DNA of 64,000 bases, taken from contig JACPJN010000007.1 of NCBI GenBank assembly GCA_016187515.1, positions 140,336-204,335 of the forward strand, given 5' to 3'. The notes under the pieces were generated by a model that saw nothing but the letters and a program-made list of their open reading frames with translations, had not been told where the DNA came from and ran no database searches. The position numbers and the translations under genes were made by a program. The stretch comes from Candidatus Uhrbacteria bacterium (GTDB taxonomy: Bacteria; Patescibacteriota; Patescibacteriia; GWA2-47-26). Positions 4,969 through 62,504 of this stretch are shown here, in pieces. Position 1 is the first letter of the stretch. Each line of letters opens with the position of its first letter.

Positions 4969-5053
4969 TCGCAAATTCTCCGCCCAAGGCGCTGTGCCCG
5001 CCTTGGGCTGGGGATCCGCCTCGGGCGGAGAACCTCATTCGTTATTCGCACCC

Positions 5054-5386: not shown

Positions 5387-5398
5387 ATTGCAGTAAAT

Positions 5399-5484: not shown

Positions 5485-5492
5485 TAAATTTA

Positions 5493-6245
5493 CTATCGGA
5501 AGAACTTCAACACAATGAGTTTCCAGAGCGTTTCCAGTCCTCTTAAAAATCCCTGGCCTTTGGAAAGCGAATATTTATCGTACTTAACCGTAATCGGCAC
5601 TTCCGCCATTTTGAGTTTTAAGCGGGCAATCTCGCGGATAATTTCGGAGGAAACCTCCATGGTGGAGGTGCGCAGGCGCAACTTCTCGGCGGCTGCTCCG
5701 GAAAAGGCCCGAAAACCGGACTGACTATCAGTTACCCATATTCCGAACAGCAGCCAGGTAAAAAAGTTGCCACACCAATTCCCTATCTTCCGTGTTATTG
5801 GTATCCACCGTGCTGTCCTGTTGTCATGCTGTCCTGTTGTCATAAATCTTGAACCGATCACCACCTCCGCTTGCCCCTCCAGGATTGGCTGTATCACCCG
5901 CGCTATCTCGGCGGGATCATGCTGAAGATCGGCATCCAGAGTAACAATTATTGAGTTATTAGTTATTGAGTTATTGGTTATTAGTTGAATTGCTCCGTCA
6001 ATGCCGGTAGAAAGCGCCGCGCCCAGTCCGCGATTAATCGGGTGACGCAGCACGATCGCGCCGGCGGCGCGCGCAACTTCCGCAGTGCGATCAGTGGAGC
6101 CATCGTCAACTACAATAGTTTTAACCCCCTCTTCATCTCCCCCTTGAAAAGGGGGAGAAAGAAAGGGCTGCATTTTACATTTCCCCACCACCTCACCCAC
6201 CGTGCGTTCTTCGTTATAAGCAGGGATTACGACTACGACTTTCAT
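5493..6245 (-). CDS. GT2 family glycosyltransferase (polyprenol-phosphate sugar transferase, DPM1/GtrB-like)
   Basis: VVVIPAYNEE, VVDDGSTD and LDADLQHDP motifs. Contains an in-frame palindromic insert (MQPFLSPPFQGGDEEG) and two in-frame tandem duplications. Confidence 0.8.
   Translation of the reverse strand: MKVVVVIPAYNEERTVGEVVGKCKMQPFLSPPFQGGDEEGVKTIVVDDGSTDRTAEVARAAGAIVLRHPINRGLGAALSTGIDGAIQLITNNSITNNSIIVTLDADLQHDPAEIARVIQPILEGQAEVVIGSRFMTTGQHDNRTARWIPITRKIGNWCGNFFTWLLFGIWVTDSQSGFRAFSGAAAEKLRLRTSTMEVSSEIIREIARLKLKMAEVPITVKYDKYSLSKGQGFLRGLETLWKLIVLKFFR
6136..6158. repeat. CTCCCC-GGGGAG palindromic element copy a (TCTCCCCCTT GAAA AGGGGGAGA), in-frame inside the GT2 CDS
   Basis: Perfect hairpin. 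Encodes a P/G/E-rich loop absent from the other GT2s in the window. Confidence 0.6.
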
Positions 6246-6264
6246 AGTCCATTAGTGTAACACA

Positions 6265-6292
6265 AGGGGCCGGGTTTTCAAACCCGACCCCT
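6265..6292 (-). terminator. strong hairpin (13-bp stem, 1 mismatch) downstream of the FN3 surface-protein gene; possible terminator
   Basis: AGGGGCCGGGTTT tc AAACCCGACCCCT, followed by a direct repeat TCATGCTTCCTA x2 at 6296-6323. Confidence 0.3.
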
Positions 6293-6320
6293 AATTCATG
6301 CTTCCTAATTTTCATGCTTC

Positions 6321-16184: not shown

Positions 16185-17441
16185 TCAATGTGGGCGATTT
16201 GTGATTAACTTCGCGAGGATATCCAGGCAGGATGACCGGCTAAAATGCTTCGCCGCGTAGGTTTGGCCGCTTTTGCCATATTCTTTCAACTTTAATCGTT
16301 CAGTATACATCTGACGAATCATTTTTTCCGCCCGCTCGGGGTCATCTGAAACAATGGAGTAACCGCACCGGGCTTCCCGGATAATCCGATGACCCTCGCT
16401 TACTGCCTGCAAAAACGCCGCGACCGGCAAACCGGCCGCCATATAACCCAAGAGTTTGCCCGGAACCACCGCAGTCGTATTTTCCGGAGCCAAACACATT
16501 AGTCCAACATCCGCCTCGGCCAGGAGCGCCGGATATTGCCGCGGCGGCACAAACGCTCCAAAAGTAACATTTCCCAAACCGTATTTATTAGCCAGTTGCT
16601 TTAGCCGCTCTTTTTCAGTGCCCTCTCCCACCAATAAAAAATGCGCCTCCTTAATGTCCGCCATACGCCGCGCCACTTCAATTACCAGCTCTAATCCTTG
16701 GGTTGGTCCAAAAATTCCGGCAAACAAAAAAATGAACTTGCCTTCCAGTCCATACTGTCTGCGAAATGACTCATGCTCTCCCTCTCCCCCGGTGGGAGAG
16801 GGTGGGGGTGAGGGGCAAGCAAATCCCGCGACATCTATCCAATTATATACGGTGGTAATCTTCTCCGGCGGCACGGCTTTTTTTTGAATAAGGAATTCTC
16901 GACCACCGCTCGTATGGGTGGTCAGCGCATCGGCCGCACGATACGCGCGGCGTTCCAGATACTCGTAAAACTTAATCAGCGCTTGGTGCTTCATTATGCC
17001 CGCATCGATCGCATTTTGCGGAAAAATATCCTGCACGTTTAAAAGATAGCGCGCGCCATATTTCTTTTTTACCCAAGCGCCCACTTGCGCCAAAGGAAAA
17101 TGCGGTATATAGACAACTACACCATCAATCGTCCCTGCCACGAACTTTTTTATGGCGCGTCGGTATACAAAAGGGAGCGTAAGCTCGCTTAATCCGCGCA
17201 ACACATAATTGGATGTCCGCTGTCCAAATGTTTTGATTCTTACCACCGTAACCGCTCCTTCTTTGACAACTGTGGGCCAGGATTTCCCTTTTTCATCATC
17301 AGGCAGGTTATCCTCCGGCTGGGGAGTCATAACCGTTACCGTATGTCCGCGCGCCACTAACCCTTCCGCCAACTCGCGCATCATCGTCGAAATTGAGCGG
17401 ATCTCCGGAGGATAAAAGCTAGTAAGCAGAAGAATATTCAT
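16185..17441 (-). CDS. GT4 family glycosyltransferase (GT-B, retaining)
   Basis: Glycos_transf_1 C-terminal pattern (GEG..., EGxxxxxxEAMAAGLPV). Carries an in-frame palindromic insert (CPSPPPSPTGGEGEHES). Confidence 0.8.
   Translation of the reverse strand: MNILLLTSFYPPEIRSISTMMRELAEGLVARGHTVTVMTPQPEDNLPDDEKGKSWPTVVKEGAVTVVRIKTFGQRTSNYVLRGLSELTLPFVYRRAIKKFVAGTIDGVVVYIPHFPLAQVGAWVKKKYGARYLLNVQDIFPQNAIDAGIMKHQALIKFYEYLERRAYRAADALTTHTSGGREFLIQKKAVPPEKITTVYNWIDVAGFACPSPPPSPTGGEGEHESFRRQYGLEGKFIFLFAGIFGPTQGLELVIEVARRMADIKEAHFLLVGEGTEKERLKQLANKYGLGNVTFGAFVPPRQYPALLAEADVGLMCLAPENTTAVVPGKLLGYMAAGLPVAAFLQAVSEGHRIIREARCGYSIVSDDPERAEKMIRQMYTERLKLKEYGKSGQTYAAKHFSRSSCLDILAKLITNRPH
16776..16816. repeat. 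CTCCCC-GGGGAG palindromic element copy b, in-frame inside the GT4 CDS
   Basis: CCTCTCCC CCGGTG GGAGAGG plus GTGGGGGTGAGGGG. Confidence 0.55.
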
Positions 17442-17454
17442 ATCAATCCAATCT

Positions 17455-17486
17455 CCTCCCCTTAAAGTAAGGGGAGCTAAGAGGGG
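17455..17486. repeat. CTCCCC-GGGGAG palindromic element copy c (CTCCCCTTA AAG TAAGGGGAG), intergenic
   Basis: Perfect 9-bp arms. Confidence 0.6.
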
Positions 17487-17564
17487 TTATGAGTGTAGTG
17501 ATCATAACAAAAATCGACTCACCCGGCAAGAACCCGCCTTTAGCAGCGCCGCTCATACCTCGGG

Positions 17565-21590: not shown

Positions 21591-22430
21591 TCAAGTCCAG
21601 GAAAGCATTGCCCGCACTGGCAGATGATCGGAAACGTCTACCTCCGGCGCATCAATGGACTCCACGCGAAAATGCGGCGAGGTGTAGATAAAGTCCACCA
21701 ATCGCCCGGCGCCGAGAACCTCCGCGGCGCGGTGCGTGCGAAGATTAAGGGTATTGTTGATGCCCGAACCATAGCAGGTATTACTCGCCGCCTTATCAAG
21801 AATCCGTATCACTTCCGAACCCGGCTCCATATTAAAATCACCGCCCAGTATAAATGGCTCATCGCCAAGTCCCCGCAGATACTCCGCGAGCAGGCGTGCC
21901 TGACGAATTTTTTCCGGCGTATCAACTGGAGCTTTGGTCCAAGCGCCATGAGTGGAAAGTATATGGAAAATACCCTCTCCCACCCCCTCTTCTCCCACCA
22001 CCCCCCGCCCCTCCTCTGGCAGGAGGGGAGACCCCCCTCGGGCAGGGGGAGAAAAACGCACGATTACGTCCAGCGCATTGCGCGGCATTTCCGGCCCGTC
22101 TTTTTCCCAAAGCAAATCCGAATAATCACGATATGCTTTTAACTGAACCGTATTACTGGCTAGGATTTTACCGCGAGCAAGCACCGCGTTACTTTCATAC
22201 GAAGATGAGTCGCCAATCAAACGAAACATCGGGGCTACAACCCCTTCAAGACCCAAGGCACTCCTAAGGTGCTGAAAAATATCCATACGCTGATCAGCCC
22301 AAAAGTTAACCCGCCCGCCAGAAACCTCCTGCATGGTAATGATATCCGGCTGCTCGCCGCGCAAAAACGAAATCAACTTATCCAAGAATTTACCGTGATA
22401 GATATTGATCTGAATGACTTTCAACCGCAT
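21591..22430 (-). CDS. endonuclease/exonuclease/phosphatase (EEP) family protein
   Basis: GDFNM and SDHLPV EEP motifs. Carries an in-frame G/P/E-rich insert from a palindromic element. Confidence 0.7.
   Translation of the reverse strand: MRLKVIQINIYHGKFLDKLISFLRGEQPDIITMQEVSGGRVNFWADQRMDIFQHLRSALGLEGVVAPMFRLIGDSSSYESNAVLARGKILASNTVQLKAYRDYSDLLWEKDGPEMPRNALDVIVRFSPPARGGSPLLPEEGRGVVGEEGVGEGIFHILSTHGAWTKAPVDTPEKIRQARLLAEYLRGLGDEPFILGGDFNMEPGSEVIRILDKAASNTCYGSGINNTLNLRTHRAAEVLGAGRLVDFIYTSPHFRVESIDAPEVDVSDHLPVRAMLSWT
21974..22054. repeat. composite CTCCCC-GGGGAG palindromic element copy d, in-frame inside the EEP CDS
   Basis: CCCCTCCT CTGGC AGGAGGGG at 22008-22028 and CCCCCCTC GGGCA GGGGGAG at 22032-22051. 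Confidence 0.6.
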
Positions 22431-27769: not shown

Positions 27770-27770
27770 A

Positions 27771-28901: not shown

Positions 28902-30550
28902 AATTGCCTTTGATAAGTAAGCCCTTGGGTAAAAGTCGAAGCGCGTTCAACATCCGGTAAATTATTTACGTCCAGCCAGTCACCGCTTATATACATCACT
29001 CGCGGCGGATGTTCGAAAGTCACAAGATCATCTAAAAGATCCGTCACGCTAAAATTCGGAAAATCTGAACGACTTTGCAGGCGCGTCAGGGACTCTTTTA
29101 GCAAGCCCAGCCCTGGTCCGCGCACCAGCAGGGCGCCGATCCATTGTCCATGGGCCTGCCGGAAGGACTCGCCCGCCGCGCTGTTCAGGCATTTCACAAG
29201 GCGCGCGTCTGGACTAAACACGCTGCGCTCGTCCGGAACATTGCAGACCACATAATCACCTTTGACCTTGTCCGTAATCTTCTGACGCACATTCGAATCT
29301 ACCACAATCGTTATTGGAGCATCCGATTCAATAAGATCGCGTACAATATACCGCCGTAACAGTAAATCTCCATACAAAATCAGCGTATTGTCTTTAACTT
29401 TGGGAAGCGCGCAAGCCAAGGTAGCCAGATCTTTGGAATGCTCAAAATCAGGATTATGCAGGAGTGTGATTCCGTCAATGGTAATTGTTTCTGGTTTGTA
29501 TCCGGCCACAACCGCGATATCACGGATACCGTGGCTTCGCAAATCTTCCACCAACCGCGCCAGTATTGGTTTACCGCCAATCGGCAACATGGCCTTGGGG
29601 CGCGCTTGGGTAAGTTCCCCTAATTCACTGCCCCGCGAGGCCGCTAAAATGACAGCGTTGGGCTGCTTTGTAAAAGAGGGTTGGAGATATTTTTCTTCCG
29701 CTGCTATAAGTTCTTCGGACTTTTGTAAACGAAATATCTCTTTGACTGGAACAATGTGATCTTCTACATTCGTGAGTGACTCTTCTTTGTAAACCTTAGC
29801 CGCGGTTTGCTGCATCGCGGAGATTGCGGCGCGCAACAAATGATTGGCCCAAATGACCACGCTAATTTTATGGGCGCGAAACTGCTGGGTCGGCGTGCTA
29901 TAATACATGGTTGGCACAATTATGAGCGGCGCGCGGCCGTCCCAGGTGCGGGCAAATTCAAAAATTTCTCCAGCGTCTTTTTTCTTACTATGCATCAAAA
30001 TGGCATCCGCCCCGGCGGCGCGATAGGCCTCTGCCCGTCGCATCGCCTCCGCCAGCCCCCAGCCTGCAATCAGCGCCTCGACCCGCGCGACTAAACAGAA
30101 ATTCGGATCTTGCTGGGTATCTTTGGCCGCTTTAATTTTCCCGCAAAATTCGGCAATCTCTGCCAGCGGTTGGGCTTCCCCGTTAATAAAGCTGTTGGTC
30201 TTTGGAAATAATTTATCCTCAATGCACAACCCCGCAACTCCGCGCTGTTCCAACTTTTTTACCAGACGGCGCACACTATTAAAATCACCGTAACCAGTAT
30301 CCCCGTCAACCAGGATGGGAATACTGGTCGCGTCGCTCATGAATTCCAGCGTCTCAAGAACCTGCGTCCAAGACGCCTCATTATTGTCGCGCACTCCAAG
30401 AGCCGCCGACATCGTCAGCCCGCTGGCCCAGATTCCTGGAAATCCGGCTTCCTCCACAATCTTGGCGGACAAACCATTATGCGCTTCCATTAGAAAATTA
30501 AGACCATTGCCGGTCAAGAGATCTCGCAGTTGTGCCGCCCTGCTTTTCAT
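28898..30550 (-). CDS. pepM: phosphoenolpyruvate phosphomutase fused to a C-terminal nucleotidyltransferase domain
   Basis: ICL/PEPM-family motifs ([20 protein letters not shown]). C-terminal [34 protein letters not shown]-transferase domain. Confidence 0.8.
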
Positions 30551-30558
30551 AAAAAATT

Positions 30559-31743
30559 CTACAAGCCATCTTCCCGATACGATCGTTCAATCCAAAGATG
30601 GTGGTCCTCCGGCTTATGCATGCGGAAGGCGTCATTGTCCAGCCGCCAAAGCAGATCGTCAGCAATGCGCTTGGACGCCAGCCCATCACCTAAGCCATGG
30701 TTCCACTTTTTTCCGTACAGTCCTTCAAATTTTTGAAACACTGTCTCGGCCGGATATTTTCCCGGCTCCGCCGGGTCAAACTTAACTGATGATCCAACAT
30801 CATATACCTGCGGTCGTTCAGTGGACTTGCGCATCTGAAGCGATGGTACTTGCAAGACGCAGGTTTCTTCAACAATCGTACCTGAATCGGTAATTACTCC
30901 GCGACTGTTTACCATCAATGCCACAATTTCCATATAGCCAATCGGATCTACCATAATCACATTGCGAGGAAGCGCCAGTCCATACTCTTTAAGCACTTTT
31001 TGCGTGCGATAGCTCAAGGGCAGATAAATCTTGCGCTTGGTACTGCCAATCAACTTCAAAATTGCCTCAAACGAGGAGCGGATATGCACATTTTCACGGC
31101 GATGCCAAGTCATTAAATAATATTCGCCTTTTTCCAAACCGCGCGATTGGAAAAATTCCGGCGTGGCCAGCGCGTCAAACTTGGCTTTTTGCTTGAAATA
31201 ATAAGTATCCAGAATCTCCACAATCGGATTACCGTAGGTAATCACAATATTTTTTGGATTGAGCCCGGCAAGCATGCCTTGATATTTGTATTCCGGAAAA
31301 TAGGTGTAAATCACATCCGAAAGCTGATCAATAAGATTGCGGTACTTCGTTTCCGGCATGCGCCAGTCGTACGCGCTCCAACATCCTTCAAAATGCACAA
31401 TCGGGATATTTAACTGCGCCGCGGCAATCGACCCTACTACGGTATTGGTATCGCCTAAAAACATTACGGCCTCGGGCTGCAATTTTTCAAGCACCGGATA
31501 GAGTTTTCTTAACACATCCGAAGCGACCTCGGCATCATTGTCGCCGGTTGCTCCCAGTTCAATGGAGGGGCGCGGTACGTCCAATTCTTGAAAAAAAACT
31601 TCCTTCAGATTATCCGAGTAATGCTGGCCAGACCAAATAAAAACAATCTCATGCTTGTCCTGCGCAAACAGTTGTTTTAGTACGAGAGAAGCCCGGATAA
31701 TATCCGGACGAATACCGAGAATGATGGCGAGTTTCTTCTTCAT
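30559..31743 (-). CDS. wecB: UDP-N-acetylglucosamine 2-epimerase (non-hydrolysing)
   Basis: N-terminus [15 protein letters not shown] and overall Epimerase_2 pattern. Confidence 0.78.
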
Positions 31744-31750
31744 ATTTGTG

Positions 31751-31784
31751 TACGAATTACGAATCTTGTACGAATACTACGAAT
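31751..31784. promoter_or_regulatory. four TACGAAT direct repeats (spacing 7, 11, 9) immediately upstream of wecB
   Basis: gTACGAATTACGAATCttgTACGAATacTACGAATcc. Shares the 14-mer RCGAATTRCGAATC with 4923-4936. Confidence 0.4.
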
Positions 31785-31789
31785 CCGCA

Positions 31790-31868
31790 CCCCCTCTAAC
31801 TCCCCCTCCGGGAGGGGGAGAAATCGATTTTCCTCCCCTGCCCGAGGGGAGGTTAGGAGGGGTGGGAG
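31790..31868. repeat. composite CTCCCC-GGGGAG palindromic element copy e (nested perfect palindromes), overlapping the last codons and stop of the RmlD-like gene
   Basis: CTCCCCCT CCGG AGGGGGAG at 31801-31820 and CCTCCCCT GCCCG AGGGGAGG at 31832-31852, with outer CCCTCTAAC / GTTAGGAGGG arms. Confidence 0.65.
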
Positions 31869-32665
31869 AACTTTTTTAATTCCTCCACCGCTTCCTCCAT
31901 CGTCCTTCCATACGGAAACAACTTCTTCAACCCTTCATACTTCGTCGTAAGCACTCTCTCTACCGAACCACGATGATCTTCCATCCGTTCCACATTTACA
32001 TTTTTTTCAAACACCTTTTTAAACAGGCACAGTAAATCATATTTCGTAATCGGTTCATTAGGCGTGAAATGAAAAACTGACGCCTCAGCGCGCAAGTCCT
32101 CAAACCGGTCTTCGCGGATTATCTTCTCACAAAGCTGGGCAAATTGCAAGGTGGTTACGCCATTCCAGATATGGTTGGTAAAACCCTGCACAGTGGCACC
32201 CTCCGGCTGGGACAAAAACCACTCCAGAAGCCCTTTTTTCTTATTTGGACTGGGGCCAATGATGGAGGTGCGAATATTGATTACATTGGGCGCTTCAACC
32301 TCTCCCTTAATCTTACTTTTTCCGTACGCATCTTCAGCATCACACGGCGAATCTTCATCATATGGACCACTCTTGCCGGAAAACACTCCGTCGGTAGACA
32401 TGTGAATGATCCTTGCGCTAGTTGCCTTTGCTAGCCAATGTGGAAACTCTGCGTTCACTTTTTTCATCTTTTCTTCTTCACCGCCAGCCAATACGCCAAT
32501 GCAGTTGATCACATAATCGTAGTCATGCGTATCCGGGACATCATTTGCGGCATCAAAATCACTCGCATTCATTCCCTTCACCTTCCATGCTTTTTCCTGC
32601 GCCAACACCTTAAGCACCATGTGCCCGAGCATTCCGGTACTGCCGAGGACAAGAATTTTTTTCAT
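31853..32665 (-). CDS. NAD(P)-dependent sugar-nucleotide reductase (RmlD-like, dTDP-4-dehydrorhamnose reductase family)
   Basis: ILVLGSTGMLG N-terminus and RmlD-like fold pattern. Start trimmed to MKKILV. Confidence 0.55.
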   Translation of the reverse strand: MKKILVLGSTGMLGHMVLKVLAQEKAWKVKGMNASDFDAANDVPDTHDYDYVINCIGVLAGGEEEKMKKVNAEFPHWLAKATSARIIHMSTDGVFSGKSGPYDEDSPCDAEDAYGKSKIKGEVEAPNVINIRTSIIGPSPNKKKGLLEWFLSQPEGATVQGFTNHIWNGVTTLQFAQLCEKIIREDRFEDLRAEASVFHFTPNEPITKYDLLCLFKKVFEKNVNVERMEDHRGSVERVLTTKYEGLKKLFPYGRTMEEAVEELKKFSHPS

Positions 32666-32667
32666 AA

Positions 32668-32697
32668 CTCCCCTAACCCCTCTTATCTTAAGAGGGG
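32668..32697. repeat. CTCCCC-GGGGAG palindromic element copy f (CCCCTCTTA TCT TAAGAGGGG), intergenic
   Basis: Perfect 10-bp arms. Confidence 0.6.
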
Positions 32698-32702
32698 AAA
32701 AA

Positions 32703-33968
32703 TTATTCAGGTACAATTTTTACGTTCGGCAGCGGCACAATAAACTTTCCCCCGCGCGCCACATAATCCTGCCGCTTGTTTAATACCTCTTTCATAAAAC
32801 TCCACGCAAAAAGCAAGGCGTAGTCCGGAAATTTTCCCTGCTCGACATGCTCCCATGGAAAAATTTGAACATGGGTCCCTGGGGTATAAAATCCATGCTT
32901 AGCCGGCGCGTCGTCAACGACATAATCCAAATGCCGTCCATCAATCCCGCAATAATTCATCACCATGGTTCCACGGCCGGAAGCGCCATAGCCGATAATC
33001 ATTTTCCCCTCCGCTTTCAGCTTCTCGAGAAGATCCATCAGCGCGACCTTCGTGCTCTCAATCTTTTTTCCATACGCCATAAATGTTTCGGCCCGGTCGT
33101 AACCCTTCGCCAGCTCATCCCGTTCCATCGTCCGAACCGCTTCGGTTATCGCGCGACCGCCGCCTTTTTTTTGTCCGTAAAATCTTACCGCTCCGGAACG
33201 CACGCCCGGGGTGAATTTAATGTCAAAAATTTCCATCCCATGCCGGCCAAGAAAATTTTGCAACGACTTCAGCGAATAATAGTTACAGTGTTCATGGTAA
33301 ATCATGTCATATTGCATCTCCTCCATCAGCGTACCCAGATAATATACCTCAATCATCGCGACCCCATCATCTTTGAGAAGCTCGGCCACGCCCCTACCTA
33401 CGCTAACCATGTCATCAATATGCGCGAACGAAAAACTGGTGGTAATGGCATCGAATTGTCCGTACTGCGCGCGGATCCGCTTCGCCACTTCTTCATTAAA
33501 AAAATCATTGATAATCGTAAATCCTTCCTGCTTGACGGAGTTGACTACATTGGTGGCCGGATCAACTCCGACGGCTTTGACGCCCAGCGCCGCAAACGGT
33601 TTAAGCATTACGCCGTCATTGCAGCCGATTTCAAACACCGAGGGATTGGGGCGATTTTTTAGAAATCGCTCATGCGCTTCGCTCGCCCACTGCGCGCAAT
33701 GATCAACCAGGGTCTTGATTGCCGAGGAAAAATAAAAATAATCTTTAAACAGCGTTTCCGGGGGAATGGCTTGCGGAACCTGTACTAAGGTGCAGTCGCG
33801 GCAGAAAGACACATGCAACGGATAAAGTTTTTCATCCGCAAACTGATCTGGCTTCAAAAATCCGCCCGCCAGCGGCATATTCCCAAAATCAATAACTTTT
33901 ACCAAATTTGACCCTTTGCAACAGCGACAGGTAGTGTGATCAGTATAAGCTCCGATTTGTGGATTCAT
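32703..33968 (-). CDS. NDP-hexose C-methyltransferase (TylC3-like: Zn-ribbon + class I MT + C-methyltransferase C-domain)
   Basis: N-terminal CRCC...CRDC zinc ribbon, SAM-MT core (FEIGCNDG) and C-terminal C-MT domain. Confidence 0.65.
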   Translation of the reverse strand: MNPQIGAYTDHTTCRCCKGSNLVKVIDFGNMPLAGGFLKPDQFADEKLYPLHVSFCRDCTLVQVPQAIPPETLFKDYFYFSSAIKTLVDHCAQWASEAHERFLKNRPNPSVFEIGCNDGVMLKPFAALGVKAVGVDPATNVVNSVKQEGFTIINDFFNEEVAKRIRAQYGQFDAITTSFSFAHIDDMVSVGRGVAELLKDDGVAMIEVYYLGTLMEEMQYDMIYHEHCNYYSLKSLQNFLGRHGMEIFDIKFTPGVRSGAVRFYGQKKGGGRAITEAVRTMERDELAKGYDRAETFMAYGKKIESTKVALMDLLEKLKAEGKMIIGYGASGRGTMVMNYCGIDGRHLDYVVDDAPAKHGFYTPGTHVQIFPWEHVEQGKFPDYALLFAWSFMKEVLNKRQDYVARGGKFIVPLPNVKIVPE

Positions 33969-34756: not shown

Positions 34757-35989
34757 TTAACTATTATACACATCTGTAAATAATTGTACAAGGGTAACGG
34801 CGGTGTCCTCCAGCTTATACTTTTTTACCTGTTCTTTACCGCGGACAATCAATTGCGCGCGCGCTGGAGCATCCGCAAGGACACGCGCAATGCATGTTGC
34901 CATATCCTCCGGATCAAACGGATTAAAGTATACTGCGGCATCGCCGCAAATTTCCCGAAAAGGATTAAAACACTTTCCGCGATACGCGGGATCAAGATCG
35001 CAATCAGCGGCGGCAATAGACACACCGGCCGCCATTGCCTCCAGAAGCGGTATGCCAAAGGTTTCCTCCAGTGAGGGGAAGACAAATGCATCAGCGTGGT
35101 TGAAATAGGTACCGACATCGCGATGCGGCACCTCATCCTTGAATACCACTTTTGAACCGAGTCCAAGCTCGTGAACAAGCGCATCAAGCGCTCCCCGCCA
35201 TGTGTGAGATCCTGTGTTGCCCACCACCATCAAATCGCCGCCATACCCATATCGCGTTACGAGGATGGAAAACGCCTTGAGCAATCGTACAGTATTACGA
35301 TGCGGGCCATTGGCGCCGATCGTGAGGATGTAGGGATTCCCCCTCCTGCCCGAGAATTTCCCCCCCTGCCCGAGGGGGGGCTCGGGGGGGTGGGAGGGGG
35401 TGATGGAAACCATTCCCACAAGACCCCTCCTAACCTCCCCTTCAAAAGGGGAGGAAATATTCGCAACCCCGTGCGGAATCACCTCGCACTTTTTAGAATC
35501 CACTCCGAGTCGCGGCACAATCAAATCGCGAGAATTTCGAGACACAAATCGAATTTTTGTTGCTCGCCGCGCCGACAACCATCCTAAAGACCGCAACAGC
35601 CCTAACCGCACTTGTTCCTTGCGCGACCACGGAAGTTTAAGCCGCGAATATGGATTGGCGTTCTCCATTAAAAGCGCGACTTTACACGGGGCCAAGATGC
35701 AAGTAGTGTTTCCAACTGAATAAAGCACATCTACTTTATGCCACGCTAAATAAACAGGAAATATCAATTGCTCCCACAACACACGCGCAAACGGATTGCG
35801 CGGAACATACGCAATTTCCACTTTTTCAAACTGTCCCGGAATCACGAGAGCAAACGCGCGCTGGCGCGCGGAATAAAAGACGATATATGAATTTTTCTGA
35901 TCCGTCCGGGCAAGTTCCGGTAAAAGTTTTTGCATCTGGCTTATACCGGCGCCGGTTTGCGCGCTCAAGGCATTGATGCCAATTTTCAT
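34757..35989 (-). CDS. GT4 family glycosyltransferase
   Basis: GT-B, Glycos_transf_1-like C-terminus. In-frame palindromic insert (HPPEPPLGQGGKFSGRRGNP). Confidence 0.72.
   Translation of the reverse strand: MKIGINALSAQTGAGISQMQKLLPELARTDQKNSYIVFYSARQRAFALVIPGQFEKVEIAYVPRNPFARVLWEQLIFPVYLAWHKVDVLYSVGNTTCILAPCKVALLMENANPYSRLKLPWSRKEQVRLGLLRSLGWLSARRATKIRFVSRNSRDLIVPRLGVDSKKCEVIPHGVANISSPFEGEVRRGLVGMVSITPSHPPEPPLGQGGKFSGRRGNPYILTIGANGPHRNTVRLLKAFSILVTRYGYGGDLMVVGNTGSHTWRGALDALVHELGLGSKVVFKDEVPHRDVGTYFNHADAFVFPSLEETFGIPLLEAMAAGVSIAAADCDLDPAYRGKCFNPFREICGDAAVYFNPFDPEDMATCIARVLADAPARAQLIVRGKEQVKKYKLEDTAVTLVQLFTDVYNS
35338..35456. repeat. composite CTCCCC-GGGGAG palindromic element copy g (three sub-palindromes), in-frame inside the GT4 CDS
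   Basis: CCCCCCCTGCCCGAGGGGGGG CTCGGGGGGG at 35361-35390 and CCTCCCCTT CAAA AGGGGAGG at 35435-35455. Confidence 0.6.
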
Positions 35990-37605
35990 AGTCCGTCAGC
36001 TATTCGCTCGTAGAGGAAAAATGCGCCGTCTGAATGCAGCAGTTGCCATTGTTTAGGGCTATTCATAACTTTCGGTATTTCCGGAACAACCTTAAAGACC
36101 ACCGGACTTTCTGGCGGTAAACCATTATGCGTAATATCCAGCAACACATATTCAGCGCGCACTAACCCATCCTCGGATTGCAGCCGCGGAAATACCATAG
36201 CGCCTTTTTTCTTAAACAGCCGAGGCACGAGAAATTCATTCGCCGACACTACCGCATCATCGGGAATCATTCGTACGAATCGCTCCGCATTGCGCTGGTG
36301 GTTATTCACTAGATACACTGACCAGTGGAAATCTTGGGTTCGAAATGGCGCCGGGCGCAAATCCTTAAACCAGAATTGCAGAGAGATCGGCGACGGCCCA
36401 AACCAGATGTTTGAGAGTAAGACACCGGCAAGGACCGCGCACATGAATGGTGTCTGTGTTTGTACCCTCACCCCAACCCTCTCCCAAAGGGAGAGGGAGA
36501 TCAAACGAGGCCAGGCTTTAATAAACGCATAAAAAATAAAAGGAATAGCCGGCGAAATATAATATAACATATATGAGTTATGCAGCGGAGAAACGCTGAT
36601 AAGCCCAATGCCAATCGCGGCCAGCGTCCCTAAAAGCGCGCCAGACGCCAAAAATGGGATCAGCAGAAGCGGTACAAACAACATGAGCACATTGGCAAAC
36701 TTTTGTACGGACAGTATGGTTGTCAGGGCGCGAGCCGGATGGGTAAGAATATTTATGGAAATCTCCGATAAGCTACTGCCCCACTGATTGAGGGATCCCG
36801 CCGCCACCTGATGCGCAAACGAATCCAAAGTATTAAACGCTGGCATAACTGCGCTGACGATAATAAAAAACATGGCCAGACCAAAAATCGCGGTAATAAT
36901 CCCGAGGCGCTTTTGTTTCCTAAATAACCAAGCATACAGACCGAACATCAAGATGGTCAGGCCAACCTCCTCGCGCGCCAGTGCGGCGGCCAACACCAAG
37001 ACCGCATAAAGCACGGTGCGCCTGGTCTCAAAAAGATAAAGCATCCAGAACAGTATTGGAATACTGAAACGCAGCATTTCAAATTCATAAAGCGTAATGT
37101 ACTGAAAGCTGGGATACCAGAGAAATGCAACTGCAACGACACGCGCAAACAAACGGTCTTTGGAAAAGTGCAGCGCGAGTTTGTAGAGCGGTATGATCGC
37201 GGAAAACATCAAAAGAAAGTTTAATACAAAAATAGTTTCCGCGCGGGGTAACAGTTTAAATGGCAGAGCGAAAAAATAAATGAAGGGCACAAAATGCGCG
37301 GCAAAATAATTGCCGAAATCAGGATCAGAAAACGCCGAATTGGGGCTTAGCGGTATTCCGGCAATTCCGAGGTTATACAGCACCTGCAGCCAATGTGAAA
37401 CATCCGCGTACATGTGCAACGAAGAATACTTTAAAATCTCCGCGGCCGGGATATATAAAACCAAACCGAAAAGTATCGCCAGCGCGATATAAAACCAACG
37501 GTTTATTAGCGCACTGAAGCGTGCGGATAAAAAATAAACCAGCGCACTCCCGCCAAATATCACTGCGACTCCGACAATGTAGAACGTCATCAATCGTGAG
37601 TCCAT
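35986..37605 (-). CDS. large polytopic membrane protein, putative GT-C-like glycosyltransferase (DUF2079-like)
   Basis: More than 12 TM helices. In-frame palindromic insert (SLSLWERVGVRV). Confidence 0.4.
   Translation of the reverse strand: MDSRLMTFYIVGVAVIFGGSALVYFLSARFSALINRWFYIALAILFGLVLYIPAAEILKYSSLHMYADVSHWLQVLYNLGIAGIPLSPNSAFSDPDFGNYFAAHFVPFIYFFALPFKLLPRAETIFVLNFLLMFSAIIPLYKLALHFSKDRLFARVVAVAFLWYPSFQYITLYEFEMLRFSIPILFWMLYLFETRRTVLYAVLVLAAALAREEVGLTILMFGLYAWLFRKQKRLGIITAIFGLAMFFIIVSAVMPAFNTLDSFAHQVAAGSLNQWGSSLSEISINILTHPARALTTILSVQKFANVLMLFVPLLLIPFLASGALLGTLAAIGIGLISVSPLHNSYMLYYISPAIPFIFYAFIKAWPRLISLSLWERVGVRVQTQTPFMCAVLAGVLLSNIWFGPSPISLQFWFKDLRPAPFRTQDFHWSVYLVNNHQRNAERFVRMIPDDAVVSANEFLVPRLFKKKGAMVFPRLQSEDGLVRAEYVLLDITHNGLPPESPVVFKVVPEIPKVMNSPKQWQLLHSDGAFFLYERIADGL
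36465..36500. repeat. CTCCCC-GGGGAG palindromic element copy h (CCCTCTCCC AAA GGGAGAGGG), in-frame inside the membrane-protein CDS
   Basis: Perfect 9-bp arms. Confidence 0.6.
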
Positions 37606-48550: not shown

Positions 48551-50367
48551 GGGAGATTCGCCTTACAATAAACTTTCGTCGTCAGAGAAGGTATCATAAC
48601 ACCGTAGGCGGGGCATGTCCAATCCGAAATCGTCTCAGGTGCCCCAGTGGAATGCCGGCTATATATTCCTTCAATGCCTGGAGCAAAATGAAAAAAAGTT
48701 TCAACCGCATGAGCGCGCGCGCCATATAATTCGTCTTCTACCTCGAACGCAGGACGATTGCACTGAACTTTGAAGCGGCGTGTGTGCTTAATCATATCGC
48801 CTTGGATCCGAAGAAAACCAGTATGGCTGATTGAAAACACGAATTGATCGCCGATCTTTTGCCACTGCGCGAACACATTACGCTTCTGATAAAACGCCGG
48901 AAACTTCTGCGCACGGTCATAAAGAAATGGACCCAAACTATCTATAGTAAGTGATGTATGTGCCGAAGCTCCGCCGCTATAGATATACAAAGGGTCGCTT
49001 GCTTTATAGGTTGGCCTTCCTGGGTCAATAACTACCGGCACCCCGGAAGCAAAAAATACAAAAGAGCACACATCTGCATGACCATGCGATGCGCGGTGAA
49101 TCATGCATGCTTGCGGGATGTGCCAAAAAAGCGTATGAACACCATGGTTCAAACGAAACCAGCCGCTTTCCGGAAACGCTTGCCACCCTCCCCTAGCCCC
49201 TCCCACAAGTGGAGGGGGATTTCCATTTACTACCTCTCCCTTTATGGGAGAGGGTTGGGGTGAGGGTGATCCTATCAAAGGCATCAGATAGTGGATCAAC
49301 CACTCCGGCGTACAATCCGGCGATACATCCCCGATAAGCGGTATCTGCCAGTGTCCATCTGTATCCTCCACCAGAAAAAACCAACACCGCTCTGCAAGTT
49401 TTTTAACCCATGGCGCAAGACACATCTCCATTTCCTGATGCCCTGTTTCCTGCGCAAGTTCATACATCTCCAATATCCAGCGGGTAAAAAGTAAATGATA
49501 ATGGCTTGACTCTTCGCGCAAAAATCCATCCTCGGTTACAAGCCATGGCAATGCGTCTTTAACAATAGCAAATGCCAAATCTGATAACTCTTTTGCCTTA
49601 AGCATTTGTCCGGCAAAAAATAGCGCGCGTGCGTTATTAACCACATGATTGCCGGTTCCGCGCGTTCCGTGGTATTCCAAATGCCGTGCCACATGGTATG
49701 CCATCTCTAACAGTGCCGCACTAATATCTTTCGGGGTCTCCGATCTCTGTTGCGCAAAAAACAACAACGCATTTACCATTCGCTCCCCTGTGGTATACGT
49801 TGTCCCGGAAATCCCTTCCGGAACCGGCCTCATTGCCGAAAGCCAAGAACGCATCAACGTAACACCTTGCTCATTGTCCATCTCATCGTAGATTAGCCAA
49901 TGCCAGCGGTGGAGCGACATGGTCTGCTCCGGATCGTCAAATTGTGTGTGCCAGTTCGGTTCACCATCGTACTCGAGAAATCCGGTGGCGAGTTTAAGGC
50001 GACCGCACGCGATACCGTCATTCTGAGGAATCGGAGATGACGAAGAATCCCGTGGGTACGTGGACGGGATCCTTCGTTGTCGCTCAGGATGACGAATTAT
50101 AGAATTAAACGCCCTCCGCACCTCTTTCGGATAATTCCACACCGGCGGAGTATAACGATATTGCAATGAAAACAAACCACGACGCACGAAAAAAAGTAAA
50201 GTCCGCGCGCAAAAAATCGGATTCACACAACGCCATAGTAAATTGCGGACTTCATTGGTCATACAGCTTTTGTAACGGCATGCCGGTCTGCAAAGAAACG
50301 GTAAGTCGTTGATACACATCGGCAACCTGTGCATAATCAAACTCTCACAACGCATTCTTAAGTTCAT
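48520..50367 (-). CDS. heparinase II/III-like domain protein (start probably internal)
   Basis: SHGHADVCSF motif of the Hepar_II_III family. In-frame insert SPSPQPSPIKGEVVNGNPPPLVGGARGG from a palindromic element. Confidence 0.5.
   Translation of the reverse strand: MNLRMRCESLIMHRLPMCINDLPFLCRPACRYKSCMTNEVRNLLWRCVNPIFCARTLLFFVRRGLFSLQYRYTPPVWNYPKEVRRAFNSIIRHPERQRRIPSTYPRDSSSSPIPQNDGIACGRLKLATGFLEYDGEPNWHTQFDDPEQTMSLHRWHWLIYDEMDNEQGVTLMRSWLSAMRPVPEGISGTTYTTGERMVNALLFFAQQRSETPKDISAALLEMAYHVARHLEYHGTRGTGNHVVNNARALFFAGQMLKAKELSDLAFAIVKDALPWLVTEDGFLREESSHYHLLFTRWILEMYELAQETGHQEMEMCLAPWVKKLAERCWFFLVEDTDGHWQIPLIGDVSPDCTPEWLIHYLMPLIGSPSPQPSPIKGEVVNGNPPPLVGGARGGWQAFPESGWFRLNHGVHTLFWHIPQACMIHRASHGHADVCSFVFFASGVPVVIDPGRPTYKASDPLYIYSGGASAHTSLTIDSLGPFLYDRAQKFPAFYQKRNVFAQWQKIGDQFVFSISHTGFLRIQGDMIKHTRRFKVQCNRPAFEVEDELYGARAHAVETFFHFAPGIEGIYSRHSTGAPETISDWTCPAYGVMIPSLTTKVYCKANLPCTMTHHFSW
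49186..49270. repeat. composite CTCCCC-GGGGAG palindromic element copy i, in-frame inside the heparinase-like CDS
   Basis: CCCCTCCCAC AAGT GGAGGGGG at 49197-49218 and CTCTCCCTTTATGGGAGAGGG at 49234-49254. Confidence 0.6.
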
Positions 50368-61065: not shown

Positions 61066-61542
61066 ATGGCTAATGCACGGCATCATCCTTATCTGGAGTA
61101 CCTATTGATCAAACTTCCTTGGTTTGAAAAATTCCCCACCCACTTTATTTTTTTCGCATTTTTCGGAGGGATTGCGACTGCAGTGGATTGGAGCGTATTC
61201 TATGTAACTCATCTGCGGCTTGGCTGGCACTATCTTCAAAGCGTGACCTTGACCTTCATTTTGGGCACACTGATAAGTTTTTCCGGCAATAAGTATCTTA
61301 ATTTCCAAGATTCCTCAAAAAAAATAATCCGTCAATATGTAATATTTGCCTCTTTGGCGGCAGTAGGTCTACTGATCACTTACGGACTGCTTACAATATT
61401 TATTGAGTATCTGCACTTGCACGCGATGGTCGCTCGCGCCATTTCAACCTTCATCGTGCTTTTCTACAACTACTTTTCGCAAAAACACATTACTTTCAAT
61501 AAACGATTCACTCATAACCCCTCCCCCCTCCCCTTACCTTAA
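61066..61542 (+). CDS. gtrA: GtrA-family membrane protein (polyprenol-linked sugar translocase-like)
   Basis: 4 TM helices with GtrA-like pattern. C-terminal PSPLPLP tail and stop come from a palindromic element. Confidence 0.6.
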   Translation: MANARHHPYLEYLLIKLPWFEKFPTHFIFFAFFGGIATAVDWSVFYVTHLRLGWHYLQSVTLTFILGTLISFSGNKYLNFQDSSKKIIRQYVIFASLAAVGLLITYGLLTIFIEYLHLHAMVARAISTFIVLFYNYFSQKHITFNKRFTHNPSPLPLP

Positions 61543-61550
61543 GGGGAGGA
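61517..61550. repeat. CTCCCC-GGGGAG palindromic element copy j (CCTCCCCTTA CCT TAAGGGGAGG), supplies the last codons and stop of gtrA
   Basis: Perfect 10-bp arms. Confidence 0.6.
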
Positions 61551-61562
61551 GAATGATGGAGT

Positions 61563-62504
61563 ATGTCTACCATATCTTTGGTCCTGCCGGTCTACAACGA
61601 GGAAGAAAACTTGCCCAAACTTTTTGCTGAACTACAGAAATTGATTGCTAAACTTCCAAACGAAGAGGTGGAGCTGATTTTTGTTGATGATGGAAGCCAC
61701 GACCGATCGTATGAAATCCTAACGGGATTTGCACAACAATATCCATTTGTAAAAACAGTCAGCTTTTCTAGAAATTTTGGTCATCAAATTGCTTTTACTG
61801 CCGGCATTGATCATGCAACAGGAGACGCGGTAATTGTCCTGGACTCTGACCTGCAAGATCCGCCGGAAGTTGCGCTCCAGATGATTGAACAATGGCGCGG
61901 CGGTGCAGCGGTAATCTATGCCAAACGCCGCAAACGTCCGGAAGATGAGAGTTGGCTTAAAAAAACCACCGCGCATTGGTATTACCGGATCCTTAATCGC
62001 CTTTCCGATATTCCGATTCCAACCGATACCGGGGATTTCCGATTGATGGATAGAAAAGTAGTGGAGGAACTGAAACGCTGTCGGGAGCACAGTCGCTACA
62101 TGCGCGGTCTTACCTCTTTTGTAGGATTTCCGCAGACAGCCATATTCTATGATCGTCATGAGCGGTTCGCCGGGAAACCAAAATATAAATTATTCAAGCA
62201 ATCATTGAAACTGGCCCTTGACGGCTTAACTGGATTTTCTGCAAAACCACTACGACTGATCTCTTATATTGGATTTGTTACCGCATTGCTAAGTTTCTTG
62301 GGTATCATATATGCAATTTTTATGAAAATATTTTTCCCCGAGATTACCGTATCTGGTTTTACCTTAACCATCATTGCAATATTTTTCATTGGAGGCATGC
62401 AAATGCTTATCTTGGGGATCATCGGCGAGTATATCGGCCGTATTTATATCGAAGCGCAAAATCGCCCGCTCTACATTGTAAAGCATAAAATGAATTTGGA
62501 TTAA
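61563..62504 (+). CDS. gtrB: GT2 polyprenol-phosphate glycosyltransferase (GtrB/DPM1-like)
   Basis: LVLPVYNEE, FVDDGSHD and LDSDLQDPPE motifs, plus two C-terminal TM helices. Confidence 0.8.
   Translation: MSTISLVLPVYNEEENLPKLFAELQKLIAKLPNEEVELIFVDDGSHDRSYEILTGFAQQYPFVKTVSFSRNFGHQIAFTAGIDHATGDAVIVLDSDLQDPPEVALQMIEQWRGGAAVIYAKRRKRPEDESWLKKTTAHWYYRILNRLSDIPIPTDTGDFRLMDRKVVEELKRCREHSRYMRGLTSFVGFPQTAIFYDRHERFAGKPKYKLFKQSLKLALDGLTGFSAKPLRLISYIGFVTALLSFLGIIYAIFMKIFFPEITVSGFTLTIIAIFFIGGMQMLILGIIGEYIGRIYIEAQNRPLYIVKHKMNLD

What the first reader, a model, noticed from the sequence alone, without database searches (positions are those of the whole stretch)
31790..31868. Palindromic elements donate C-terminal residues and stop codons to two genes
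Copy e overlaps the last codons (..SHPS) and the TAA stop of the RmlD-like reductase gene. Copy j (61517-61550) supplies the PSPLPLP tail and stop of gtrA through the cTTAAgggg arm.

Together with copy f just upstream of the same reductase gene, that gene is bracketed by elements on both sides. Insertion of these elements near the 3' ends of genes can therefore remodel C-termini and termination sites.
Basis: seen in the sequence. Interest (0 to 1): 0.6.

Follow-up and report, generated by a model that had tools for sequence, protein, structure and literature searches.

The report
Palindromic repeats supplying gene ends
In this Candidatus Uhrbacteria genome piece, copies of a dispersed family of C-rich/G-rich palindromic repeats sit on the 3' ends of two sugar-pathway genes and encode their last 3 and 9 amino acids plus the stop codon, which is real but is the known behaviour of REP/MITE-type repeats, seen here in an uncultivated lineage.

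Summary

**Element e (31788-31864).** It is a two-hairpin compound palindrome (RNA fold -58.9 kcal/mol, z -5.5). Its outer arm encodes H268-P269-S270 and the TAA of the RmlD-like reductase.

**Element j (61513-61551).** It encodes H150-P158 (HNPSPLPLP) and the TAA of gtrA. Its G-rich arm, GGGGAGGAG, lies 11 nt before the next gene's ATG.

**More than chance.** The window holds 14 such hairpins, against 1.3±1.1 in shuffles.

**Orthologues.** gtrA orthologues with the element share the tail. Those without it end differently, and one shows an empty site. The closest reductase orthologue lacks the element and ends ..HNYK*.

**Evidence for a dispersed family:**
- Copies lie in frame inside six other window genes.
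- Copies lie inside reductase orthologues at a site that is empty here.
- A 21-base core occurs in at least 120 metagenome contigs, with the consensus CATAAC…hairpin1…hairpin2…GTTAT.

**Size of the effect.** The tails are short, and both models place them after the last helix as coil; the GtrA model is weak.

**Prior knowledge.** REP termini supplying stop codons, and in-frame MITE/RPE insertions, are already documented.

**Not shown.** The transposition mechanism, any duplication of the insertion site, and any regulatory role such as an SD-sequestering hairpin giving translational coupling.

The parts
31788..31864 (-). Copy e: a compound palindromic element made of outer arm, hairpin 1, AT-rich spacer, hairpin 2 and outer arm. 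It lies between the reductase and UDP-GlcNAc 2-epimerase genes.
   Evidence: Sequence and coordinates. The sense-strand RNA fold is -58.9 kcal/mol, z -5.53, with 0 of 200 shuffles as stable. It is collinear with a metagenomic full element (L061) and with the in-frame copy inside the L011 reductase.
31853..31864 (-). Element-encoded end of the reductase: codons H268, P269 and S270 plus the TAA stop (31853-31855), inside the right outer arm GTTAGGAGGGGTG.
   Evidence: The AlphaFold model has its last helix at residues 256-267, with residues 268-270 as coil.
31853..32665 (-). RmlD-like SDR reductase CDS (270 aa).
   Evidence: Pfam PF04321, E 1.6e-18. 100% identical to P0001, Candidatus Uhrbacteria.
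32666..32697 (-). Copy f ('module 2' type): CCCCTCTTAAGATAAGAGGGG-TTA-GGGGAGTT, ending directly at the reductase ATG (32663-32665).
   Evidence: A nearly identical copy sits at the same junction in L016, whose reductase is about 50% identical. The junction is empty (3-5 nt spacers) in L005, L010 and L011.
61513..61551 (+). Copy j ('module 1' type): CATAACCCCTCCCCCCTCCCCTTAcctTAAGGGGAGGAG. It encodes gtrA residues H150-P158 and the TAA stop (61540-61542, in the hairpin loop). Its 3' arm is Shine-Dalgarno-like and lies 11 nt before the ATG at 61563.
   Evidence: The same element is present at the same site in L051 and L053 and absent in L054. The element is 93-98% identical across these three, against 68-79% for the flanking CDS.
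61066..61542 (+). gtrA-like CDS (158 aa).
   Evidence: Pfam PF04138 matches residues 30-144. In a low-confidence model (mean pLDDT 64) the last helix ends at residue 142 and residues 143-158 are coil, with pLDDT below 50 for 141-154.
61563..62504 (+). Downstream GT2 glycosyltransferase gene, whose likely ribosome-binding site is the 3' arm of copy j.
   Evidence: Pfam PF00535. The gtrA-to-GT2 gene order is kept in L051, L053, L054 and L056.
17453..17491 (-). Copy c, a second module-1 copy: CATAACCCCTCTTAGCTCCCCTTActtTAAGGGGAGGAG. It ends 11 nt upstream of the GT4 gene's ATG (17441).
6125..6167 (-). In-frame hairpin inside the GT2 gene 5493-6245 (peptide ..QPFLSPPFQGGDEEGV..).
   Evidence: The Pfam GT2 match spans the insertion.
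16770..16812 (-). In-frame hairpin inside the GT4 gene 16185-17441 (..CPSPPPSPTGGEGEH..), in the linker between the two domains.
22006..22050 (-). Two adjacent in-frame hairpins inside the endonuclease/exonuclease/phosphatase-family gene 21591-22430.
   Evidence: The Pfam match covers residues 7-269 against a 225-position profile.
35340..35455 (-). Two in-frame elements inside the GT4 gene 34757-35989. They lie in the linker between IPHGV and YILTIG.
   Evidence: The 16 orthologues in the alignment are 373-397 aa, against 410 aa here. Several carry their own hairpin-like peptides at the same place.
36460..36498 (-). In-frame element (outer arm plus hairpin) inside the DUF2079 membrane-protein gene 35986-37605.
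49183..49268 (-). In-frame compound element (copy i, with the same architecture as copy e) inside the heparinase II/III-like gene.
   Evidence: It sits in a loop that varies among homologues. It aligns with copy e.

Best explanation
Copies e, f, j and c belong to a dispersed family of small, non-coding, quasi-palindromic repeats that resemble REP/REPIN or MITE elements.

**Structure of the family.** The arms are runs of C (CCCCTCC-like) and their G-rich complements. The arms are joined by short linkers and loops that carry TAA (..ATAAC.., ..TAAC.., ..CTTAAG..). A full element is about 85-95 nt: CATAAC-CCCTCC.., hairpin 1 (CCTCCCCTTA/TAAGGGGAGG), a short spacer, hairpin 2 (CCCCTCTTA/TAAGAGGGG), then GGGGAGTTAT. 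Half elements are also common (module 1 = copies j and c; module 2 = copy f).

**How the tails arise.** The arms contain no stop codons. A reading frame that enters a copy therefore reads Pro/Ser/Leu codons until it meets a TAA in a linker or loop. That gives HPS* for the reductase and HNPSPLPLP* for GtrA. If the frame stays open through the element and the length is a multiple of three, the gene continues. The result is a Pro/Ser-rich then Gly/Glu/Arg-rich insert in a loop or linker.

**Shown:**
- the element overlaps the gene ends
- the family is dispersed
- presence and absence vary among orthologues
- copies occur in frame inside genes

**Inferred:**
- The copies arose by insertion. The mechanism is unknown.
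- The appended tails are functionally neutral.
- At gene junctions the hairpin sequesters a Shine-Dalgarno-like arm (GGGGAGGAG, about 11 nt before the next ATG). Because the upstream stop lies in the loop, translation of the upstream gene would open the hairpin and couple the two genes.
For: **Enrichment.** The window has 14 hairpins, against 1.3±1.1 in shuffles.

**Distribution.** Related hairpins are present in Uhrbacteria and Parcubacteria relatives. They are essentially absent from about 30 other, almost all non-CPR, loci encoding the homologous reductase; the few detector hits there do not look like family members.

**Filled and empty sites:**
- gtrA 3' end: filled in the window, L051 and L053; empty in L054.
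- Methyltransferase-reductase junction: filled in the window and L016; empty in L005, L010 and L011.
- Internal reductase site ..STDGVFSG^: empty in the window; in L010 a 57-nt and in L011 a 105-nt segment replaces the 12 nt found here.

**Tails track the element.**

**Discrete architecture.** Copy e, copy i, the L011 internal copy and a metagenomic full element share the same layout.

**Wide occurrence.** The flanks are conserved starting at CATAAC. Module 2 lies within 60 nt in 42 of 119 copies.

**Relation to genes across those copies:**
- 13 copies have an ORF of at least 100 aa whose stop lies inside the element
- 26 have such an ORF starting in, or within 30 nt after, the element
- 15 have such an ORF running through the element, including a leucyl-tRNA synthetase

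**Assembly behaviour.** Four of the four independent Logan contigs of this organism break inside copy e, as expected at a repeat.

**Support for a junction role.** Copy j is 93-98% identical among three species whose flanking CDS is 68-79% identical.

[quoted passage not shown] In-frame MITE fusions are 'not unusual' (PMC10969869).
Against: - There is no transposase in the 64-kb window.
- No duplication of the insertion site (TSD) could be defined from the filled and empty pairs, because the orthologues are too diverged.
- The only Y1/RAYT-like gene found near a copy (L171) is flanked by a different palindrome. Mobility is therefore inferred only from distribution.
- The reductase tail FS(H/P)P is shared by several orthologues that also carry an element there. 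That insertion is either old or recurrent, and its polarity is not strictly proven.
- High conservation of copies j and f at orthologous sites fits selection for a host function as well as it fits a selfish element.
- Most genes in the window have no obvious Shine-Dalgarno sequence, so the importance of the donated one is uncertain.
- The start-codon spacing after module 1 across metagenome copies is broad, from about 6 to 26 nt.
Confidence: 0.75

Rival explanations
1. The hairpins are host-evolved regulatory structures that punctuate operons, and they are not mobile. They could be SD-sequestering or translational-coupling hairpins, mRNA stabilisers or RNase processing sites. On this view the overlap with the C-termini is incidental to their position at gene junctions.
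For: - Copy j is more conserved than the surrounding coding DNA across three species.
- Copy f is nearly identical in L016 although the reductase there is only about 50% identical.
- G-rich arms lie 8-13 nt before start codons in copies j and c, in L010 and L011, and in many metagenome copies.
- Module 2 recurs directly upstream of ORFs in 31 IMG/VR viral contigs, and 36 of its 41 copies there end in GTTATG.
Against: - The same sequences occur in frame inside unrelated enzymes: six window genes, the L010 and L011 reductases and the L063 LeuRS. No junction function is possible there.
- Presence and absence among orthologues are patchy and do not follow sequence relatedness.
- Copies occur in both orientations relative to neighbouring ORFs.
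- The two views are not exclusive. Junction copies could be co-opted.
Confidence: 0.15
2. The hairpins are rho-independent terminators, and the genes simply end inside them.
For: They are stable GC-rich stems located at gene 3' ends.
Against: - No run of T follows copies e, j, f or c. The terminator scan of 30500-33000 reports none at these positions.
- The genes before and after are tightly packed on the same strand in what looks like one operon.
- Many copies lie inside ORFs.
Confidence: 0.04
3. The pattern is a chance or compositional artefact, or an artefact of metagenome assembly at repeats, such as chimeric joins that create false gene ends.
For: Logan contigs of this organism break inside copy e, so assemblers do struggle at this point.
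Against: - The enrichment over shuffles is more than tenfold.
- The reductase end plus the first 13 nt of the element is reproduced in independent assemblies.
- The gtrA tail is reproduced in an independent protein cluster, P0121 (145 aa, N-terminally shorter), seen on 7 contigs.
- The same junctions are found in other species.
Confidence: 0.03

Closest known systems
REP elements and REPINs (repetitive extragenic palindromes; GTAG- and CGTC-tagged super-families; RAYT-mobilised doublets)
   Same: - They are short GC-rich stem-loops dispersed in many copies.
- They are often paired into larger hairpins.
- They lie mostly between genes transcribed in the same direction.
- Their termini can supply the stop codon of the flanking ORF.
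- A minority lie wholly inside ORFs, in loops or linkers (PMC3733652; PMC3337134 abstract).
   Different: - By inspection of the element sequences, these elements carry no GTAG or CGTC tag at the hairpin ends. They have CATAAC/GTTAT ends and TAAC/GTTA linkers instead.
- Their arms are C-tracts and G-tracts that mimic the anti-SD and SD sequences.
- No RAYT linkage was shown.
- The host is a CPR bacterium.
Rickettsia palindromic elements (RPEs)
   Same: They are palindromic repeats inserted in frame into unrelated protein-coding genes of a small genome, apparently at sites that tolerate them (PMC10969869).
   Different: RPEs are about 100-150 bp, belong to alphaproteobacterial sequence families, and encode a conserved peptide. 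The units here are 25-95 nt, unrelated in sequence, and read in different frames in different genes.
Bacterial MITEs such as Correia/NEMIS, ERIC and RU-1/2/3
   Same: They have terminal inverted repeats, fold as RNA hairpins, become fused to host ORFs (including at C-termini), and affect neighbouring gene expression (PMC2229807).
   Different: Those families have defined target-site duplications or partner IS elements, and motifs such as IHF or RNase III sites. None of these was shown here.
SD-sequestering hairpins that give translational coupling
   Same: This is a resemblance in how it would work, not membership of a family, and it rests on my own knowledge (for example the phage MS2 coat-replicase junction). 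In copy j a stable stem pairs GGAGG with a CCUCC-like arm. The upstream stop codon lies in the loop and the next start lies about 11 nt downstream.
   Different: The function is untested here. The same sequence also occurs where no downstream gene start exists.

Membership tests
REP / REPIN | A short (20-40 bp) GC-rich imperfect palindrome present in many dispersed copies. | tested here: met
   The window has 14 hairpins against 1.3 expected. The core occurs in at least 120 metagenome contigs.
REP / REPIN | A conserved GTAG or CGTC tetranucleotide tag at one end of the stem-loop. | tested here: not met
   By inspection, the element sequences and the position frequencies show CATAAC…GTTAT ends and TAAC/GTTA linkers. 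No GTAG or CGTC tag is seen at the hairpin ends; no dedicated search for these tags was run.
REP / REPIN | [quoted passage not shown] | tested here: met
   Copy e folds as a single hairpin of about 85 nt, -58.9 kcal/mol, z -5.5. Copy i and the L011 internal copy have the same layout.
REP / REPIN | A cognate single-copy RAYT (Y1 transposase) flanked by the same REPs. | tested here: inconclusive
   There is none in the window. One Y1_Tnp gene (E 3.9e-8) lies about 1 kb from a copy on L171, but it is flanked by a different palindrome, CAACTCCGGGTGTTGA. The rest of the genome was not available.
MITE | Terminal inverted repeats and a size of about 50-500 bp. | tested here: met
   Full elements are about 85-95 nt, with CATAACCCCTCC… and …GGGGGAGTTAT ends or outer arms. 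Many copies are half elements.
MITE | A target-site duplication flanks each insertion. | tested here: inconclusive
   The filled and empty pairs are too diverged to define exact insertion boundaries.
MITE | A parent IS with matching ends. | not tested
   No IS was found in the window or the loci. A whole-genome search was not possible.
Rickettsia palindromic elements | In-frame insertion within protein-coding genes. | tested here: met
   Six window genes carry in-frame copies, with Pfam domains spanning the inserts. The L010 and L011 reductases and the L063 LeuRS also do.
Rickettsia palindromic elements | Membership of the RPE sequence families of Rickettsia. | not tested
   No comparison with RPE sequences was run. 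The host is a CPR bacterium and the units are far shorter than RPEs (PMC10969869), so I do not file it as an RPE.
Intrinsic terminator | A GC-rich hairpin followed by a run of T. | tested here: not met
   No terminator-like site was reported at copies e or f. The sequence after copies j and c has no T-run.
Any Rfam RNA family | A score above the family's gathering threshold. | tested here: not met
   There were 0 matches in the whole window.

The most novel reading that the evidence does not exclude
The family may be a portable gene-boundary cassette rather than a merely selfish repeat. Its features fit that reading:
- TAA-bearing ends and loops, which close two of the three reading frames in most copies
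- an anti-SD/SD hairpin
- a GTTATG end that can supply a start codon

On this reading the element is selected at operon junctions as a translational-coupling or insulation device in Uhrbacteria/Parcubacteria and other groundwater and sediment bacteria. It would also be exchanged with phages, which use module 2 upstream of their own genes. Its in-frame copies inside enzymes, including an aminoacyl-tRNA synthetase, would be a CPR counterpart of Rickettsia RPEs.
Probability: 0.2. Interest if true: 0.7.

Novelty: new member of a known kind. Interest (0 to 1): 0.45.

Why it matters
**For annotation.** C-terminal tails such as HPS* and HNPSPLPLP*, and odd Pro/Ser-then-Gly/Arg inserts in CPR proteins, are repeat-derived. 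They should not be read as functional motifs or used as phylogenetic characters. The repeats also break short-read assemblies at gene junctions.

**For biology.** A small CPR genome tolerates a dense population of palindromic repeats. There are about 11 loci in 64 kb, and six of them lie inside genes. That parallels Rickettsia and REP-rich proteobacteria.

**If the junction copies do couple translation.** The family would then be a simple, testable example of a repeat supplying a stop, a ribosome-binding site and sometimes a start codon to neighbouring genes.

Tried and rejected
- **Rfam.** The scan of the whole window found nothing.
- **Terminators.** The promoter and terminator scan found no terminator at the elements.
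- **Literature.** Searches for palindromic, MITE or REP elements in CPR, Patescibacteria or Parcubacteria found nothing relevant.
- **Transposase.** Pfam was run on 58 ORFs chosen as the likely genes of the window, and no transposase was found. A motif screen of 2276 ORFs from all loci found one RAYT-like gene (L171). It is flanked by a different palindrome that is absent from the window.
- **Target-site duplications.** They could not be resolved from the filled and empty pairs.
- **Taxonomy of the metagenome contigs.** Exact protein look-up returned no organism names. The host range beyond Uhrbacteria and Parcubacteria is therefore unknown. The contigs have 33-65% GC, and some encode PurD, SecA or sugar ABC transporters.
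- **Viral contigs.** Module 1 was not found there.
- **Stops in all three frames.** I first thought this was general. It holds for only 13 of 118 copies, and two frames are closed in 81 of 118.
- **Overlap with stop codons in the window.** By my own rough estimate, 2 of about 11 loci overlapping a stop is not clearly more than random placement would give, which is about 0.6 expected.

Full report
**What is at the coordinates**

The window is part of a long, mostly minus-strand cluster for polysaccharide and phosphonate biosynthesis (Pfam). It comes from a Candidatus Uhrbacteria (CPR) bacterium. The RmlD-like reductase encoded at 31853-32665 (minus strand) is 100% identical to an NCBI protein of that name.

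The reductase ends ..KKFSHPS, with TAA at 31853-31855. Between it and the next gene, a UDP-GlcNAc 2-epimerase at 30559-31743, lies a compound palindrome. Its parts are:
- outer arm CACCCCCTCTAAC, 31788-31800
- hairpin CTCCCCCTCCgGGAGGGGGAG, 31800-31820
- an AT-rich spacer
- hairpin CCTCCCCTgcccgAGGGGAGG, 31832-31852
- outer arm GTTAGGAGGGGTG, 31852-31864

The stop and the codons for H268, P269 and S270 lie in the last arm. As sense RNA the region folds into one long hairpin of -58.9 kcal/mol (z -5.5).

gtrA (61066-61542, plus strand) ends ..FTHNPSPLPLP. Its TAA (61540-61542) sits in the loop of the hairpin CCTCCCCTTAcctTAAGGGGAGG. Copy f (32666-32697) fills the spacer between the upstream C-methyltransferase stop and the reductase ATG.

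**More than chance, and a family**

Hairpins with a C-rich 5' arm and a G-rich 3' arm number 14 in the window, against 1.3±1.1 (maximum 4) in dinucleotide shuffles.

Eight of them, at six loci, lie inside long ORFs and in frame:
- GT2, 5493-6245
- GT4, 16185-17441
- an endonuclease/exonuclease/phosphatase-family gene, 21591-22430
- GT4, 34757-35989
- DUF2079, 35986-37605
- a heparinase II/III-like gene, 48520-50367

Pfam domains span these inserts. Alignments place two of them in variable linkers or loops.

Related hairpins occur in Uhrbacteria and Parcubacteria loci. They are essentially absent from about 30 other, almost all non-CPR, loci that encode the homologous reductase; the few hits of the same hairpin detector there do not resemble the family.

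**Orthologue test for gtrA**

Three orthologues (73-82% identity) carry the same element at the same place and end ..THNPS[SP]LPLP*. Five others end ..KTATTCK*..KRSLTL*..RPSQKVE*..RQPHHPPERL* or ..RKTKPRLSLEQPKV*.

The DNA of L054 shows the empty site..ctc TAA, a 17-nt spacer, then ATG. Against the family consensus the element starts at CATAAC (61513), so nine residues plus the stop are element-encoded.

**Orthologue test for the reductase**

The closest orthologue (P0002, 75% identity) has no C/G hairpin and ends ..EELHNYK*. A different palindrome lies downstream of it.

L010 and L011 (64-68% identity) end ..QFSPP*. Each has its own related hairpin (tCTCCCCCTTAGgwTAAGGGGGAg) over the last codons and the TAG. 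Each also has a second, module-1-like hairpin whose GGGGAGGAG arm precedes the epimerase ATG.

Non-CPR loci with the same reductase-to-epimerase order have no element. I found no 'ancestral stop just downstream'. Element-free proteins end at about the same length.

**Evidence that these are inserted, dispersed elements**

1. The reductase genes of L010 and L011 contain in-frame elements at ..STDGVFSG^..YDEDSP, a site that is empty in the window. In L010 a 57-nt segment, CCCCTCACCCCaCCCTCTCCCtaaGGGAGAGGG..GGGTGAGGG, replaces the 12 nt found here. In L011 a 105-nt segment replaces them; it holds a two-hairpin compound element of about 90 nt.
2. That compound copy, copy e, copy i and a metagenomic full element are collinear.
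3. Copy f is nearly identical at the same junction in L016, where the reductase is only about 50% identical. It is absent from the three closer relatives, which have 3-5 nt spacers. This patchy pattern needs repeated gain or loss.
5. In those contigs the flanks are conserved from CATAAC onward. In 42 of 119 copies, module 2 (CCCCCTCTTAnnnTAAGAGGGGG..GGGGGAGTTAY, the copy-f type) follows within 60 nt.
6. Across those copies, counting ORFs of at least 100 aa, 13 have the stop inside the element. A further 14 have it within 30 nt upstream. Twenty-six have an ORF starting in the element or within 30 nt after it. Fifteen have an ORF running through it.
7. One of the ORFs that runs through is a leucyl-tRNA synthetase reading HNPSPPPLTLRGG…TPLKVRGARGVM.
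8. All four Logan contigs of this organism break inside copy e.

**How the donation works**

This part is shown. The C-tract and G-tract arms contain no stop codons, and the TAA triplets sit in the linkers and loops. In metagenome copies, TAA in ATAAC is present in 77%, TAA in CTTAAG in 78%, and TAA in TAAC in 17%. Two frames are closed in 81 of 118 copies and all three in 13 of 118. A gene that runs into a copy therefore gains a few Pro/Ser/Leu codons and an element stop.

The appended residues are few. The reductase model (pLDDT 92.7) has its last helix at 256-267 and then HPS as coil. In the GtrA model the last helix ends at 142 and residues 143-158 are coil, with pLDDT below 50 for 141-154. 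That model is weak overall: mean pLDDT 64, from an alignment of only 8 sequences.

**Possible function at junctions**

This part is inferred. Copies j and c, and the second hairpins of L010 and L011, place GGGGAGGAG about 8-13 nt before the next ATG. That arm is paired with a CCUCC-like arm, and in copy j the upstream stop lies in the loop. This geometry suits translational coupling through an SD-sequestering hairpin.

In support, copy j is 93-98% identical among three species whose flanking CDS is 68-79% identical.

Against a purely regulatory origin:
- the same sequences occur inside ORFs
- copies occur in both orientations
- most window genes lack an obvious SD

No run of T follows the hairpins, so they are not canonical terminators.

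**Mechanism of spread**

This is unknown. There is no transposase in the window. One RAYT-like Y1 transposase lies about 1 kb from a copy on L171, but it is flanked by a different palindrome. Target-site duplications could not be defined.

**Comparison with what is known**

Di Nocera et al. 2013 report four points for GTAG and CGTC REPs (PMC3733652):
[quoted passage not shown] - some lie inside ORFs
- dimers form larger structures

In-frame MITE fusions, with RPEs as the extreme case, are reviewed in PMC10969869 and PMC2229807.

The elements here lack the GTAG or CGTC tag and have no shown RAYT link. I therefore do not file them as REPs in the strict sense. They behave like REP/REPIN or MITE elements. 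I found no description of such repeats in CPR bacteria.

**Verdict**

The phenomenon is a new instance of a known kind, and its consequence for the proteins is small. The wider family is the more interesting lead. It includes in-frame copies in enzymes, gene-junction modules, and module 2 in phage contigs.

Noticed in passing
window 6125-6167, 16770-16812, 22006-22050, 35340-35455, 36460-36498, 49183-49268: The same C/G palindromes lie in frame inside six enzyme or membrane-protein genes. They add Pro/Ser-rich then Gly/Glu/Arg-rich peptides in loops or linkers, much as Rickettsia palindromic elements do.
   Followed up: partly
window 50017-50093 (minus strand); L005 2838-2895: A second, unrelated palindrome family (GTCATCCTGAGCG…CTCAGAATGAC, about 80 nt) lies in frame in the N-terminal region of the heparinase-like ORF (peptide ..RHPERQRRIP…SPIPQNDG..). 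A related sequence follows the reductase stop in the closest orthologue.
   Followed up: no
window 2672-2703 and 3348-3381: There are two perfect 32- and 34-nt palindromes that share the core TAAGCGATCGCTTA (containing GCGATCGC). The second overlaps the last codons and the TAA of the ComEC-like gene (3372-5051). That makes a third gene whose stop lies in a palindrome, from a different family.
   Followed up: no
window 31751-31784; also 4921-4973 and 5392-5494: Four copies of the heptamer ATTCGTA (sense strand) lie between copy e and the epimerase ATG. Other AT-rich short repeats, such as TAAGT-like units, occur in other spacers upstream of genes. Their function is unknown.
   Followed up: no
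L177-L207 (IMG/VR viral contigs), e.g. L196 1930-1962 and 2609-2641: The module 2 motif CCCCTCTTAnnnTAAGAGGGGnnnGGGGAGTTA occurs 41 times in 31 viral contigs of about 55% GC. In 36 of the 41 copies it continues as GTTATG. It usually lies directly upstream of ORFs; on L196 its two copies precede ORFs next to a 357-aa ORF that I take to be the capsid gene from its sequence alone (not checked with Pfam or PHROGs). Module 1 was not found in any viral contig.
   Followed up: partly
L063 about 1300-1400; L086 about 4250: A full two-module element lies in frame inside a leucyl-tRNA synthetase (..HNPSPPPLTLRGGDETVTPLKVRGARGVM..). A module 1 copy lies in frame in a 646-aa protein that I did not identify.
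   Followed up: no
L171, reverse strand 6245-6922: A RAYT-like Y1 transposase (Pfam Y1_Tnp, E 3.9e-8) lies about 1 kb from an element copy. It is flanked on both sides by a different palindrome, CAACTCCGGGTGTTGA.
   Followed up: partly
window 34757-35989: The GT4 protein with the large in-frame insert has no identical entry in the protein collection; the best hit is 64% identical. The neighbouring reductase does have a 100% entry. The gene may have been split or called differently in public annotation.
   Followed up: no
L001-L004: All four Logan contigs of this organism that carry the reductase end within a few bases of its stop codon, where copy e begins (L001 ends 13 nt past the stop). This shows that the repeat breaks short-read assemblies.
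   Followed up: yes
window 18855-19684 and 25944-30550: A HepT/nucleotidyltransferase toxin-antitoxin-like pair sits within the glycan cluster. So does a phosphonate module: a PEP mutase fused to a nucleotidyltransferase, a TPP decarboxylase and an aminotransferase.
   Followed up: no
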